A stretch of 64,000 nucleotides of DNA from Escherichia coli. Lineage in GTDB: Bacteria; Pseudomonadota; Gammaproteobacteria; Enterobacterales; Enterobacteriaceae. The notes below the pieces were generated by a model. It had not been told where the DNA came from. It searched no databases and saw nothing but the letters and a program-made list of their open reading frames with translations. Below are positions 2,650 to 35,429 of this stretch, piece after piece (position 1 is the stretch's first letter; each line of letters opens with the position of its first letter). A program made the position numbers and the translations under genes. The stretch lies in NCBI RefSeq assembly GCF_022846255.1, contig NZ_AP025682.1; one strand, given 5' to 3'.

Positions 2650-3598
2650 GCCACTGGCTGTCGTCGCGGTTGGCGGCAATGCGCTCATTCAGGACGAGCA
2701 ACGCAATAGTATTCCCGATCAATATGTTGCAGTGATGGAAAGCGTGCAACATATCGTTGATATGGTTGAAGCCGGATGGGACCTGGTACTAACCCACGGT
2801 AATGGCCCGCAGGTGGGCTTTATTCTGCGCCGCTCTGAACTCGCCAGTAACGAAGTTTCTCCGGTTCCACTTGATTACGCCGTGGGTGATACACAAGGTG
2901 CAATTGGCTACATGTTCCAGAAAGCGCTGCATAACGAATTGGCTCGCCGTGGCATAAACAAACCGGTAATTGCCCTGGTGACACAAACGCGAGTCAGCCC
3001 ACATGACGATGCTTTCGCCAGCCCCAGTAAACCAATTGGCGCGTTTCTCGATGAAGCAACGGCCCAACAACGCCAACAACAACTCGGCTGGACGCTGATG
3101 GAGGACGCCGGGCGTGGTTGGCGGCGTACAGTTCCCTCTCCTGCACCACTGGAAATTATTGAGCACGACACCATCGCTCACCTGGTGCGCCAGGGATATC
3201 TGGTTATTGCCTGCGGCGGCGGCGGTATTCCGGTGGTGCGAGACGGGCAACAACTGAAAGGTGTGGAAGCCGTGATCGATAAAGATCTGGCCTCCGCGCT
3301 GCTCGCCAGTCAGTTAGGCGCAGATCTGCTGGTGATCCCCACCGGTGTAGAAAAAGTAGCGATTAACTTTGGTACACCACAACAACAGTGGCTCGACGCT
3401 ATCAGCGTTGCCGAAGCGCAAACGCTGTTGCGGGAAGGTCAGTTTGGTGTCGGCAGTATGCAACCCAAAGTGGAAGCCATTGTTGATTTCATCAATGCCA
3501 GCCAGCAACAAGGCAAACAGGCCAGCGGCCTGATTACTTCACCGCAAACCATAAAAGCAGCCCTGGCGCATCAGAGCGGTACATGGATAACCCTTTAA
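2642..3598 (+). CDS. carbamate kinase (ArcC/YahI/YqeA-like paralog)
   Basis: MVKPLAVVAVGGNALI N-terminus, THGNGPQVG and CGGGGIPVV motifs typical of carbamate kinase; ATG 2642 overlaps upstream stop by 8 nt. Confidence 0.85.
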   Translation: MVKPLAVVAVGGNALIQDEQRNSIPDQYVAVMESVQHIVDMVEAGWDLVLTHGNGPQVGFILRRSELASNEVSPVPLDYAVGDTQGAIGYMFQKALHNELARRGINKPVIALVTQTRVSPHDDAFASPSKPIGAFLDEATAQQRQQQLGWTLMEDAGRGWRRTVPSPAPLEIIEHDTIAHLVRQGYLVIACGGGGIPVVRDGQQLKGVEAVIDKDLASALLASQLGADLLVIPTGVEKVAINFGTPQQQWLDAISVAEAQTLLREGQFGVGSMQPKVEAIVDFINASQQQGKQASGLITSPQTIKAALAHQSGTWITL

Positions 3599-31554: not shown

Positions 31555-34101
31555 TCACGAAAAATACTGCTGCAACAGCGGCGCGTCATGCTCCTGATTG
31601 GCAGGTGGCATGTTACCGATAGATTTGGTGCGAAACGGAATCACCTGTTCACGACCATCAACCTTCACAATCTGATAGAACTGCGGCAGGTTGAAGTTGA
31701 TGAAGCTTGAGCCGTAGGTGAAACGGTCGTGCGAAGACGAGTAGAAGCGACTGACGTCACGCACCAGTTCCTCTTTGCTGCCTTCGCAGTGGTGATACAC
31801 CTCAACCCGGTTGCTTTCGTCGAGAATGTAGATATTAAAGCCATTCTCGTCTTGCGTTTCTTCGAAGAAAAACTGGATGATCCCTTCGCTGGCAAAGCCG
31901 TCCACCACCGCCGGTAATTTGACGTGATTGGTTTCAACCTGCACTGACAGGCCGTGCAGTTTGTTATGCGAAATAGCGCCATAAAACTCGATGGCGTTTT
32001 CCAGTTTCTGTACCGAGACATTCAGCCGTTCGAAGAACAAGCCCCAGGTTTGACCGGAGACGCGCAGCGCCTTGAAGCGCCCGGTTTCCTGGCGGGTGCT
32101 GGAAAGACGCAGTTCAATACACTCAGAAACCAGTTGCTGCACGCGAGTACGGATTAACCCGCGCAGATGCTGGCTATAACAGAAGACTTCCACACTATCT
32201 GGCGGTGCGGCGTCCTGATGCATTTTGCCGAGAATGGTTTTCAGGGCTTCAATCATCGACTGCTCACCGTTGAAGTGCAGCGTACGCACTTCGTTCCACG
32301 AGTTGCGATACAGCAGGTCAACGCTACCCACCAGGCAATTTTGATTCTCGCCAAAGCTGAAGACATCCAGCTTACGGAAATCAAAATGCACCACCTGATT
32401 GCGGAAGGCTGCCGTCGGGTCATATTCCAGGTTAACGATAATCGCCAGATGGCGGATCTCACACGGGCTGTAGAGCGCCTTCGGTGTCGGTGCAGGTAAG
32501 CGCAGCGGGAAATGGTGCGACACGTCGGCGACCATCTCCTGCAACTTAGGCAAATCGACAATGCCGTTACCTTTAATATACAAGCGGGTGCGCGAGGTCA
32601 GCAGGCCGTTAAACCATGCCCACGCCACCAGTTTATTCAGGTAACGGTTATATTCCAGCGGCTGATGGCTGATGATCGACTCAATATTTGGCGCGCGGTT
32701 ATACAGATACCAACCTGAACGGTTAGCCCGGCCCGGCGGCACATAAATAAAGGTCAGATTCGGTTCCGAGAGATCGGGTGAAATCTGCGGGTTTACCAGC
32801 GTCACTTTACCCGGTAACGCTTCAAACGCGGCGTACAGTTTACGTGTCAGAACACCGATATCCTGCGGGCTGGCGGAAACGCTAAGGTTATTGCGACGCG
32901 CAAAGCGGATCAGATTGCGGTAGCTCTGCATCATCGCGTCGAGCAACTCGTTGTGCGCCTCACGCACCTGATCAATCTTCCAGTTAGCGCGATTATCAAG
33001 CATTGCCAGACGAGAATCGTCCCATTCCCACTCTTTCACCAACTGGCTTAACACTTCACGACGCCAGCCTACGCAGGCGCGTTCACGGCTGAGTTTTTCG
33101 CAAACTTTTAAATAGAAGCATCGGCGAACTAAATCCAGACGAGTAAAATCTTCGATCGCCGTCAGATATTCAGTGACGCGCTCCAGCATCATGCAATACG
33201 GGTCGAGACCAAACGACACTATTTCGCCGTCGTGCAAACGCTGTTTGATATCTTTCGCCAGCAGACGTGGGTTCGGGTATTCCCAGGAATAGGCTTCCAG
33301 CAGCAGTGTTTTCAGCACCGCTTTGTATGGGGAATCGATACTCTTGTAGAGCTGCCAAAGGCTGGCACCAAAGTACTCTTCAGCAGAAAGCGAGCTTAAG
33401 CCACCAAGATCCAGCCATTCATTTGGCGTCAACACGCCCTGCGCGTAAAGCGTCATCACATAGTCGTCGTAATGCTCTTCTTCGTCGCACGGCACCATAT
33501 TCCACAGAATACGCTTACCGGCGAGACGCACGGCGGTACGATAAAATTCGTCAAGCAGCAGTATATGCTGGGTGGAGCCACAATCTTCGCCCCCCAGGCT
33601 GCCGCTTTCATTATGACGGAAGCGGTTTTCATCAATCAGGAAGAAGCTGACTTCCACACCCAGCGAGGCGGCCCAGCTTTCCAGCAGACTACATTTACGT
33701 TGTAGCAACTGGCGCTCTTCGCTATCGAGCCAGGATTGATGACAGACCCAGATATCCAGGTCAGAGGAACAACTTTGCCCTACGGACGAGGTGCTGCCCA
33801 TGGTGTATACACCAGTAATTGGAAGCTCACCTTTCGGTGGGTCCTGTACTGACATTCCACGATACAGTTCAAGCTCGTTCAGGTAGTGGCGTTGAGTTTC
33901 ATCAGGCGTGTAAAGGCAAATGCCTTTGGGAACGTTACCATCAAGGTAACCCGGCATTAGCGGATGGTGATAGTGCAACAATGTCGGCAGTAGACTGTAG
34001 ACCTGTTGGAATGCAGGCCCCATAGCAGCAAGCGCGCGATCCACACGCAATTGATTTATGGCATCCAGTCTCTGTTTCAGAGTCTCAATATAGAGGTACA
34101 A
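31555..34101 (-). CDS. cyaA: adenylate cyclase (class I)
   Basis: 848-aa product matching CyaA; initiation codon at 34099-34101 reads TTG on the minus strand. Confidence 0.97.
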
Positions 34102-34487
34102 GACGTATCGCCTGATTTGCTACCCGTCATGACTGTGATTCCGCCAACATCAACGGTAACACGCGGCATTCGGGATATTTCGTATGTCAAAGGTAACCGT
34201 TACCACTTTTCGCGCCTGGTTTTTTTAGTTTCACGACGAAAAAATGGTCTAAAACGTGATCAATTTAACACCTTGCTGATTGACCGTAAAGAAAGATGCG
34301 CTACATACAAGTGTAGCACCGTTTATTCTCTGTAAATTCCTTATTACGAAGGCTCAAAGCGCCTGTCAGGATCCACTGCCAGACCTCATTTTACGGTTTG
34401 CGCAGGCGTCTACGTTTCACCACAACACTGACATCGCTCTGGCAAGGATGTTAGGATGGACCACGGATGATAATGACGGTAACAAGC

Positions 34488-35429
34488 ATGTTAGACAATG
34501 TTTTAAGAATTGCCACACGCCAAAGCCCACTTGCACTCTGGCAGGCACACTATGTCAAAGACAAGTTGATGGCGAGCCATCCGGGCCTGGTCGTTGAACT
34601 GGTACCGATGGTGACGCGCGGCGATGTGATTCTTGATACGCCGCTGGCGAAAGTAGGCGGAAAAGGCTTATTTGTGAAAGAGCTGGAAGTCGCGCTCCTC
34701 GAAAATCGCGCCGATATCGCCGTACATTCAATGAAAGATGTGCCGGTTGAATTCCCGCAAGGTCTGGGGCTGGTCACCATTTGCAAGCGCGAAGATCCCC
34801 GCGATGCCTTTGTATCCAACACCTATGACAGTCTGGATGCGTTACCGGCAGGCAGTATCGTCGGGACGTCCAGTTTACGTCGCCAGTGCCAACTGGCTGA
34901 ACGCCGCCCGGATCTGATTATCCGCTCCCTGCGCGGCAACGTCGGCACTCGTCTGAGCAAACTGGATAACGGCGAATATGATGCCATCATTCTTGCCGTA
35001 GCCGGACTAAAACGTTTAGGTCTGGAGTCCCGCATTCGCGCCGCGTTGCCACCCGAGATTTCTCTTCCGGCGGTAGGGCAAGGTGCGGTGGGCATTGAAT
35101 GCCGCCTTGATGATGCACGCACTCGCGAGCTGCTCGCCGCGCTGAATCACCACGAAACTGCACTGCGCGTTACCGCCGAACGCGCCATGAATACCCGTCT
35201 CGAAGGCGGATGTCAGGTGCCAATTGGTAGCTACGCCGAGCTTATTGATGGCGAAATCTGGCTGCGTGCGTTGGTTGGCGCGCCGGACGGTTCGCAGATT
35301 ATTCGCGGTGAACGCCGCGGTGCGCCGCAAGATGCCGAACAAATGGGGATTTCGCTGGCAGAAGAGCTACTGAATAACGGCGCGCGCGAGATCCTCGCTG
35401 AAGTCTATAACGGAGACGCCCCGGCATGA
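34488..35429 (+). CDS. hemC: porphobilinogen deaminase (hydroxymethylbilane synthase)
   Basis: [20 protein letters not shown]... 313 aa from internal ATG of ORF 34467..35429. Confidence 0.95.

What the first reader, a model, noticed from the sequence alone, without database searches (positions are those of the whole stretch)
34099..34101. cyaA initiates at TTG
The reading frame encoding the recognisable CyaA N-terminus ([16 protein letters not shown]...) begins with TTG on the minus strand, with no upstream in-frame ATG. A weak start codon is an established feature limiting adenylate cyclase translation. Annotation pipelines that require ATG would truncate the gene.
Basis: partly seen in the sequence, partly recalled or inferred. 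Interest (0 to 1): 0.2.

Follow-up and report, generated by a model that had tools for sequence, protein, structure and literature searches.

The report
Known TTG start of E. coli cyaA
The adenylate cyclase gene cyaA in this E. coli window does begin with the rare, weak start codon TTG, but this is a textbook feature described in the 1980s and already annotated correctly in public genomes, so the finding is real and ordinary.

Summary
Confirmed and already known. The window is E. coli chromosome. An 848-codon minus-strand ORF (31555..34101) starts with TTG at 34101..34099. An in-frame TAG lies seven codons upstream (34122..34120), with no ATG, GTG or TTG in between.

The product matches the class I adenylate cyclase model NF006977 end to end (residues 1-848 on profile 1-848, 2048 bits). 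RefSeq/PGAP starts cyaA at exactly this TTG in all three records I inspected.

The 61-nt initiation region is identical in 5418 of 5425 complete E. coli genomes and identical to K-12. In species-representative genomes the homologous codon is TTG in 62 of 63 Enterobacterales-like loci. It is also TTG in 13 of 17 mid-distance loci (Aeromonas, Tolumonas, Moritella, Aliagarivorans, Pasteurellaceae), always with an AGG at -12..-10.

Three-base periodicity of conservation starts at codon 2, so translation must begin at this codon. More distant gammaproteobacteria instead carry an N-terminal extension, mostly starting at ATG.

A held paper (PMC5499595) cites Reddy et al. 1985: UUG:GUG:AUG give adenylate cyclase at 1:2:6. 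It also notes that the UUG is conserved phylogenetically.

An ATG-only gene caller would start at codon 27 and lose 26 conserved residues. Interest is low.

The parts
34099..34101 (-). TTG (UUG) translation initiation codon of cyaA
   Evidence: Sequence read directly. It is the first codon of the 848-aa ORF. RefSeq CDS starts here in ATCC 11775, N196 and K-12 GM4792. It is TTG in 62/63 Enterobacterales-like loci and 13/17 mid-distance gammaproteobacterial loci.
31555..34101 (-). cyaA coding sequence, 848 codons plus stop; class I adenylate cyclase
   Evidence: ORF listing and translation. NCBIfam NF006977 1-848/1-848, 2048 bits against a cutoff of 1761. Pfam PF12633 covers residues 5-200 and PF01295 covers residues 228-825.
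34120..34122 (-). In-frame TAG stop seven codons upstream of the TTG, which closes the frame
   Evidence: The six codons between it and the TTG are CAA ATC AGG CGA TAC GTC.
34107..34113 (-). Shine-Dalgarno-like AGGCGAT (-12..-6); AGG lies 9 nt before the TTG
   Evidence: Duplex with the 16S 3' end is -5.9 kcal/mol. This is the best of the in-frame candidates but only modest, since 17% of random window positions do as well. AGG at -12..-10 is kept in Enterobacterales and also in Aeromonas, Tolumonas, Moritella and Pasteurellaceae loci.
34102..34116 (-). Conserved initiation-region block ATCAGGCGATACGTC (-15..-1)
   Evidence: 90-100% column conservation in 63 Enterobacterales-like sequences, except -6 (46%) and -4 (78%). 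The alignment breaks down upstream of -18.
34021..34023 (-). First in-frame ATG (codon 27), where an ATG-only caller would start
   Evidence: The 26 residues upstream of it are nearly invariant in Enterobacterales, and the region shows coding periodicity.
34252..34296 (-). Conserved upstream block (-195..-151) holding a CRP-like site TGTTA-N6-TCACG (34270..34255) that overlaps a -10-like TAAATT (34267..34262), with a -35-like TTTACG (34290..34285). Probably the CRP-repressed cyaA promoter. It is context for the start codon, not part of it.
   Evidence: Most columns are 90-98% conserved in 63 sequences. The motifs were read. PMC3050693 states that CRP represses cyaA in E. coli and binds over the cyaA -10 region in Y. 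pestis. Calling it promoter P2 rests on my memory of Aiba 1985 and was not tested. The consensus scan did not list it because it matches only 8 of 12 hexamer positions.

Best explanation
This is the well-known UUG initiation codon of the E. coli adenylate cyclase gene cyaA. Ribosomes are positioned by a modest Shine-Dalgarno-like AGGCGAT 6-12 nt upstream. They start at UUG with initiator tRNA, so the protein begins Met-Tyr-Leu-Tyr-Ile-Glu. UUG pairs less well with the initiator anticodon than AUG, so the codon holds CyaA synthesis to roughly one sixth of what AUG would give. This adds a constitutive translational throttle on top of CRP-cAMP repression of the promoter and post-translational control of the enzyme. 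Shown here: the position of the start, the impossibility of an upstream start, coding signature from codon 2, conservation of TTG and of the -15..-1 block, and agreement with reference annotation. Taken from literature: the 1:2:6 expression ratio. Inferred: that purifying selection against higher CyaA output is what keeps the T at position 1.
For: TTG at 34101..34099 opens an 848-codon ORF with an in-frame TAG 7 codons upstream. NF006977 aligns residues 1-848 to profile positions 1-848. PGAP CDS features start at this TTG in three E. coli records. The 61-nt region -30..+31 is identical in 5418/5425 complete E. coli genomes, and the one variant inspected differs only at -25. The window is identical to K-12 from -246 to +260. 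Across species representatives the aligned codon is TTG in 62/63 Enterobacterales-like and 13/17 mid-distance loci. In codons 2-26, conservation at codon positions 1/2/3 is 0.94/0.99/0.67, while the TTG itself is 1.00/1.00/0.98 with no synonymous leucine codon ever seen. That is the behaviour of an initiator, not an internal Leu codon. Upstream in-frame starts exist in only 20/63 loci, at scattered positions, and the upstream region carries indels. The SD-like element is the best among in-frame candidates. Literature: UUG:GUG:AUG = 1:2:6, and UUG is conserved in cyaA of enterobacteria and other gammaproteobacteria (PMC5499595).
Against: I could retrieve no direct initiation-site measurement for cyaA (ribosome profiling with initiation inhibitors, or N-terminal peptide). 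The Ribo-RET supplement is not held, an N-terminomics data set has no CyaA entry, and the original 1983-1990 papers are not held. The expression ratio is therefore cited second-hand. The SD-like pairing is only modest. An in vitro data set lists a weak extra initiation peak at an out-of-frame ATG 37 nt inside the gene; this does not contradict the TTG start. One metagenome-assembled Enterobacteriaceae genome has TTT at the position (L050).
Confidence: 0.97

Rival explanations
1. The real start is downstream, at TTG codon 18, GTG codon 20 or ATG codon 27, and the first 17-26 codons are untranslated leader that merely happens to be open.
For: These codons exist in frame. ATG27 has a weak SD-like pairing of -4.9 kcal/mol.
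Against: Codons 2-26 show clear coding periodicity (0.94/0.99/0.67) and an almost invariant peptide, [19 protein letters not shown], across 63 Enterobacterales-like loci. Family profiles cover residue 1 (NF006977) and residue 5 (PF12633). TTG18 and GTG20 are absent in many species. Mutating the UUG changes enzyme yield (literature).
Confidence: 0.01
2. Translation starts upstream of the TTG at a non-canonical codon, for example ATC five codons upstream, between the TAG and the TTG.
For: ATC at 34116..34114 is a near-cognate codon inside the six-codon open stretch.
Against: It sits upstream of, and partly within, the SD-like element, so it has no ribosome-binding site of its own. The -18..-1 stretch shows no codon periodicity. 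Reference annotation and the family profile start at the TTG. In other species the open stretch upstream varies from 5 to 65 codons, with indels.
Confidence: 0.01
3. The start site is the same, but the reason UUG is kept differs. UUG is retained not simply to lower output but because UUG-initiated translation is comparatively insensitive to cold, nutritional state and ppGpp, keeping CyaA synthesis running during starvation. This is the proposal of PMC5499595.
For: The paper reports that UUG mRNA competitiveness was hardly affected (about 12% reduction) under the tested stress-like condition, and it links this to cyaA and spoT. In my sample the codon is always TTG and never GTG in the clade that uses this start. 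Simple throttling alone would not obviously require that.
Against: The evidence in that paper comes from model mRNAs in vitro, not cyaA in vivo. One Pasteurellaceae species (Cricetibacter, L057) has ATG at the position. Nothing in my analysis separates the two selective explanations.
Confidence: 0.2

Closest known systems
E. coli K-12 cyaA (b3806) UUG start codon (Roy et al. 1983; Aiba et al. 1984; Reddy, Peterkofsky and McKenney 1985)
   Same: It is the same gene and the same nucleotides. The window is identical to K-12 from -246 to +260 around the start. It has the same 848-aa length and the same annotated start.
   Different: Nothing relevant differs. The window strain is closer to ATCC 11775 and Nissle 1917 (100% over 671 nt), and differs from K-12 only at scattered positions outside the initiation region.
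cyaA of other Enterobacterales, Aeromonadales and Pasteurellaceae
   Same: TTG at the homologous codon, AGG at -12..-10, and a homologous N-terminal peptide. This agrees with the statement in PMC5499595 that UUG is conserved in cyaA of many gammaproteobacteria.
   Different: Leader sequence upstream of -18 is not conserved. E. coli carries about 59 nt (-76..-18) that are gapped in 44-58 of 63 aligned sequences.
Class I adenylate cyclases of Pseudomonas, Cellvibrio, Marinobacter, Methylococcaceae and relatives (NCBIfam PRK09450.2-type models, about 950 aa)
   Same: The same enzyme family and the same catalytic-domain motif SDLDIW(V/L)CH that was used to find them.
   Different: They have an N-terminal extension. 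The codon aligned to E. coli codon 1 is an internal Asp or other codon, and the likely start is usually an ATG about 15 codons upstream. Consistent with this, E. coli residue 5 aligns to position 20 of those profiles.
Other regulatory non-AUG starts in E. coli, such as the infC AUU start autoregulated through IF3
   Same: A non-AUG initiator that lowers translation and is phylogenetically conserved (general knowledge; discussed in PMC5499595).
   Different: For infC the codon is the target of a feedback loop. For cyaA only a constitutive reduction has been demonstrated, and no feedback acting through the UUG is known or shown here.

Membership tests
Class I adenylate cyclase (CyaA; NCBIfam NF006977, Pfam PF12633 + PF01295) | Full-length match to the equivalog model above its curated cutoff | tested here: met
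   NF006977 scores 2048 bits against a cutoff of 1761, residues 1-848 on profile 1-848.
Class I adenylate cyclase (CyaA; NCBIfam NF006977, Pfam PF12633 + PF01295) | Two-domain layout: N-terminal domain followed by the class-I cyclase domain | tested here: met
   PF12633 covers residues 5-200 (E 1.2e-82) and PF01295 covers residues 228-825 (E 5.3e-259).
Class I adenylate cyclase (CyaA; NCBIfam NF006977, Pfam PF12633 + PF01295) | Conserved genomic setting in E. coli: divergent from hemCDXY, followed by cyaY | tested here: met
   RefSeq features around the 100% identical match read hemY-hemX-hemD-hemC, then divergent cyaA, then cyaY.
Class I adenylate cyclase (CyaA; NCBIfam NF006977, Pfam PF12633 + PF01295) | Enzymatic synthesis of cAMP from ATP | not testable with these tools
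   Inferred from identity with the characterised E. coli gene. No solved structure of any sequence relative was found.
Genes with a genuine UUG initiation codon | UUG is the first possible start of the conserved reading frame, with the frame closed just upstream | tested here: met
   TAG lies 7 codons upstream with no ATG, GTG or TTG between.
Genes with a genuine UUG initiation codon | Protein-coding constraint begins immediately after the UUG and not before it | tested here: met
   Conservation at codon positions 1/2/3 is 0.94/0.99/0.67 for codons 2-26. There is no periodicity in -18..-1, and indels occur upstream.
Genes with a genuine UUG initiation codon | The codon is conserved as UUG rather than drifting among leucine codons | tested here: met
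   TTG in 62/63 Enterobacterales-like and 13/17 mid-distance loci, with no CTN or TTA variant.
Genes with a genuine UUG initiation codon | Ribosome-binding site at a suitable distance | tested here: inconclusive
   AGGCGAT at -12..-6 gives -5.9 kcal/mol, which 17% of random positions match. However, the AGG at -12..-10 is conserved across orders.
Genes with a genuine UUG initiation codon | Experimental proof of initiation at the UUG (mutagenesis, N-terminal sequence, initiation profiling) | not testable with these tools
   Known only through literature: the 1:2:6 mutagenesis result cited in PMC5499595. The primary papers and the Ribo-RET tables are not held.

The most novel reading that the evidence does not exclude
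The exclusive retention of UUG (never GUG), together with the near-invariant -15..-1 block ATCAGGCGAnAyGTC across Enterobacterales, could mean the cyaA initiation region is the target of a dedicated, still undescribed control. Examples would be a trans-acting RNA or protein, or stress-robust UUG-specific initiation. In that reading it would not be a passive throttle.
Probability: 0.12. Interest if true: 0.4.

Novelty: already known. Interest (0 to 1): 0.06.

Why it matters
It matters only as a check on annotation quality. cyaA is a classic case where the rare UUG start (a few percent of E. coli genes, from general knowledge) is functional, and where an ATG-only caller would remove 26 conserved N-terminal residues. 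The weak codon is one layer that keeps adenylate cyclase, and therefore cAMP, low. Nothing here changes that picture. My analysis adds a small independent confirmation: the codon is invariant in about 99.9% of complete E. coli genomes and is kept as TTG across Enterobacterales, Aeromonadales and most Pasteurellaceae sampled. More distant gammaproteobacteria use an upstream ATG with a longer N-terminus.

Tried and rejected
(1) I tried to read the primary papers: Reddy 1985 (PMC390610), Roy 1983 (PMC555187) and Thorner 1990 (PMC1204097). None is held, so the 1:2:6 figure is cited through PMC5499595.

(2) I looked for direct initiation-site data.
- The Ribo-RET preprint has no supplement held as text.
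- The TRAINSPOTTER N-terminomics supplements have no cyaA or P00936 entry.
- INRI-seq Table S3 lists only an alternative out-of-frame ATG peak for cyaA. I found no table of annotated-start peaks that mentions cyaA.

(3) A sequence search of the PDB found no solved relative of the protein, so no construct boundaries could be compared.

(4) An Rfam scan of 33900..34520 at E<=1 found nothing, so there is no known leader RNA element.

(5) The sigma-70 consensus scan did not report the conserved promoter-like block. It reported only two 9/12 matches near hemC and a hairpin at 34319..34298. I located the CRP-like site and the hexamers by eye.

(6) I considered the out-of-frame 17-codon uORF (ATG 34130) as a possible translational coupling or occlusion element. 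I set it aside because the segment -76..-18 that holds it is gapped in 44-58 of the 63 aligned Enterobacterales-like sequences.

(7) The predicted local mRNA folding around the start includes a 4-bp GACG/CGUC stem that brackets the SD. Its 5' arm lies in the non-conserved segment, so I did not pursue it.

Identity with a characterised gene made them unnecessary.

Full report
**Observation**

On the minus strand, window positions 34101..34099 read TTG.

The mechanical ORF list gives 31555..34101 (-), 848 aa, start codon TTG. Reading upstream in frame gives GTC, TAC, CGA, AGG, ATC, CAA and then TAG at 34122..34120. No in-frame ATG, GTG or TTG can precede the TTG. Downstream, the next in-frame canonical starts are TTG at codon 18, GTG at codon 20 and ATG at codon 27 (34023..34021).

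**What the locus is**

- A 671-nt stretch around the start is 100% identical to E. coli ATCC 11775, Nissle 1917 and other strains. It is present in 5425 of 5426 complete E. coli genomes, annotated 'cyaA: class I adenylate cyclase'.
- In ATCC 11775 the neighbours are hemY-hemX-hemD-hemC on the divergent side and cyaY downstream.
- The cyaA CDS there begins at locus position 3370, which maps to window 34101, exactly the TTG.
- The translated product matches NCBIfam equivalog NF006977 over residues 1-848 on profile positions 1-848 (2048 bits, cutoff 1761).
- Pfam gives Adenyl_cycl_N over residues 5-200 and Adenylate_cycl over residues 228-825.

**Is the TTG really the start?**

Four independent lines say yes.

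1. The frame is closed seven codons upstream.
2. The reference annotation starts there in three separate RefSeq records, including a K-12 derivative.
3. Within E. coli, the 61 nt from -30 to +31 are identical in 5418 of 5425 genomes. The one variant I opened differs only at -25. The window equals K-12 from -246 to +260.
4. Conservation across species supports it, as follows.
   - I scanned one genome per species for the back-translated catalytic-domain motif SDLDIW(V/L)CH, about 113 codons downstream of the start. The motif says nothing about the N-terminus, so it does not bias the result.
   - For the 113 loci with enough upstream sequence, I aligned the open frame to E. coli residues 1-121.
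   - The codon aligned with E. coli codon 1 is TTG in 62 of 63 Enterobacterales-like loci. The exception is one metagenome-assembled genome with TTT.
   - It is also TTG in 13 of 17 loci at intermediate distance: Aeromonas, Tolumonas, Moritella, Aliagarivorans, Aggregatibacter and Bisgaardia. One Pasteurellaceae species, Cricetibacter, has ATG there.

**Coding signature**

In a MAFFT alignment of 63 sequences covering -200..+120, codons 2-26 show mean column conservation of 0.94, 0.99 and 0.67 at codon positions 1, 2 and 3. This is the same pattern as codons 27-40 (0.91, 0.94, 0.64). Translation therefore already covers codon 2.

The TTG itself scores 1.00, 1.00 and 0.98, and it is never replaced by another leucine codon. 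That is what is expected of an initiator and not of an internal Leu codon.

Upstream, positions -15..-1 (ATCAGGCGATACGTC) are 90-100% conserved except at -6 and -4, without three-base periodicity. Beyond -18 the alignment collapses into gaps.

In-frame upstream start codons occur in only 20 of 63 loci, at scattered positions. The open stretch upstream ranges from 5 to 65 codons. E. albertii, for example, has a one-base difference just upstream that shifts the frame relative to E. coli. All of this marks the upstream region as non-coding.

**Ribosome-binding site**

AGGCGAT at -12..-6 (34113..34107) pairs with the 16S rRNA 3' end at -5.9 kcal/mol. That is better than the regions before TTG18 (-3.1), GTG20 (-1.3) and ATG27 (-4.9). 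It is unremarkable in absolute terms, because 17% of random positions in the window do as well.

More telling is that an AGG at exactly -12..-10 accompanies the TTG even in Aeromonas, Tolumonas, Moritella and Pasteurellaceae, where the rest of the leader differs.

**Mechanism**

The mechanism is established in the literature rather than shown here. PMC5499595 reports, citing Reddy, Peterkofsky and McKenney (PNAS 1985), that UUG, GUG and AUG at this position direct adenylate cyclase synthesis at 1:2:6 (1:2:3 in a lacZ fusion). It also states that cyaA begins with UUG in many Enterobacterales and other gammaproteobacteria. The window is identical to K-12 through the whole initiation region, so the result transfers directly.

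The best explanation is that the weak initiator constitutively throttles CyaA synthesis. The same paper proposes that UUG is also kept because it is relatively insensitive to cold, nutritional state and ppGpp. My data cannot separate these two reasons. They only add that GTG was never seen at the position in the clade that uses this start.

**Wider phylogeny**

In Pseudomonas, Halopseudomonas, Cellvibrio, Marinobacter, Methylococcaceae, Chromatiales and similar genomes, the codon aligned to E. coli codon 1 is an internal codon, often GAC or GAT. The likely start is usually an ATG about 15 codons upstream. This agrees with E. coli residue 5 aligning to position 20 of the PRK09450.2-type NCBIfam models. 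The short N-terminus with a TTG start therefore looks like a feature of the Enterobacterales, Aeromonadales and Pasteurellales part of the family.

**Surroundings**

A block at -195..-151 (34296..34252) is mostly 90-98% conserved. It contains a CRP-like site TGTTA-N6-TCACG (34270..34255) that overlaps a -10-like TAAATT preceded by TGT, with a -35-like TTTACG 17 nt upstream (read).

PMC3050693 states that CRP represses cyaA in E. coli and binds over the -10 region of cyaA in Y. pestis. I take this block to be that promoter, but I did not test it. The name P2 comes from memory.

No Rfam family matches the leader. No solved structure of any sequence relative exists in the PDB copy.

**Annotation claim**

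An ATG-only caller would begin at codon 27 and give an 822-aa product lacking 26 residues that are almost invariant across Enterobacterales. Current RefSeq annotation does not make this mistake.

**Verdict**

The feature is already known in full: position, function and conservation. Interest is low (0.06).

The only mildly open point is why UUG specifically, and the adjacent 15-nt block, are so strictly kept. I give a 0.12 probability that this reflects a dedicated undescribed control rather than simple throttling plus ribosome-binding constraints.

Noticed in passing
window 34130..34077 (-): An out-of-frame ATG at -29 opens a 17-codon ORF ([17 protein letters not shown]) that runs across the cyaA TTG and stops at TGA inside codons 8-9. 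Its upstream region pairs with the anti-SD as well as the cyaA one does (-5.9 kcal/mol). The segment -76..-18 that holds it is gapped in 44-58 of 63 aligned Enterobacterales-like sequences, so it is probably not a conserved element.
   Followed up: partly
L066, L007, L038, L051, L063, L101, L060, L100, L004, L017, L029: position -6..-4 relative to the TTG: In at least 11 Enterobacteriaceae species the C at -5 is T. This creates an out-of-frame ATG (GATATGTCTTG) only 1 nt after the SD-like AGGCGAT and overlapping the TTG, opening a 9-codon ORF. E. coli has ACG there. Whether it competes with the TTG is unknown.
   Followed up: no
window 34064..34062 (-): INRI-seq Table S3 (PMC9825163) lists a weak in vitro initiation peak in cyaA at an out-of-frame ATG, 37 nt from the annotated start (peak 9.1, 4 peaks, not seen in Meydan 2019). 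In the window this is ATG CCA TAA, a two-codon mini-ORF.
   Followed up: partly
L050 (MAG, Enterobacteriaceae bacterium bran_bin.7): TTT replaces the TTG at the cyaA start, in an otherwise conserved initiation region (ATCAGGCGATACGTCTTT) followed by the normal peptide. This could be an assembly error or a start-codon loss.
   Followed up: no
L006, L013, L016, L024, L030, L042, L074, L089, L115 and others: Class I cyclases of Pseudomonas, Cellvibrio, Marinobacter and related genomes carry an N-terminal extension of about 15 codons, usually starting at ATG. The TTG start therefore goes with a shortened N-terminus in the Enterobacterales, Aeromonadales and Pasteurellaceae group (consistent).
   Followed up: partly
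window 34252..34296 (-): A strongly conserved block in the hemC-cyaA intergenic region has a CRP-like site (TGTTAAATTGATCACG, 34270..34255) overlapping a -10-like TAAATT. It is probably the CRP-repressed cyaA promoter. The consensus promoter scan missed it.
   Followed up: partly
window 34298..34319 (both strands): A terminator-like hairpin, GTGCTACACTTGTATGTAGCGC followed by a T-rich tail, is reported on both strands just upstream of the conserved promoter block, between hemC and cyaA. Its role is unknown.
   Followed up: no
window 34467..34490 (+): hemC has two in-frame ATGs seven codons apart. The longest ORF starts at 34467 (320 aa), but RefSeq annotates a 942-nt CDS (313 aa) that maps to a start at 34488.
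   Followed up: partly
whole cyaA product (window 31558..34101, -): The sequence search found no chain in the 2026 PDB copy related to this class I adenylate cyclase at E<=0.001. The family appears to lack an experimentally solved structure detectable by sequence.
   Followed up: no
E. coli genome search results: Of 5426 complete E. coli genomes, one has no match to the cyaA start region. At least one genome carries a second copy, and one copy lies on a plasmid.
   Followed up: no
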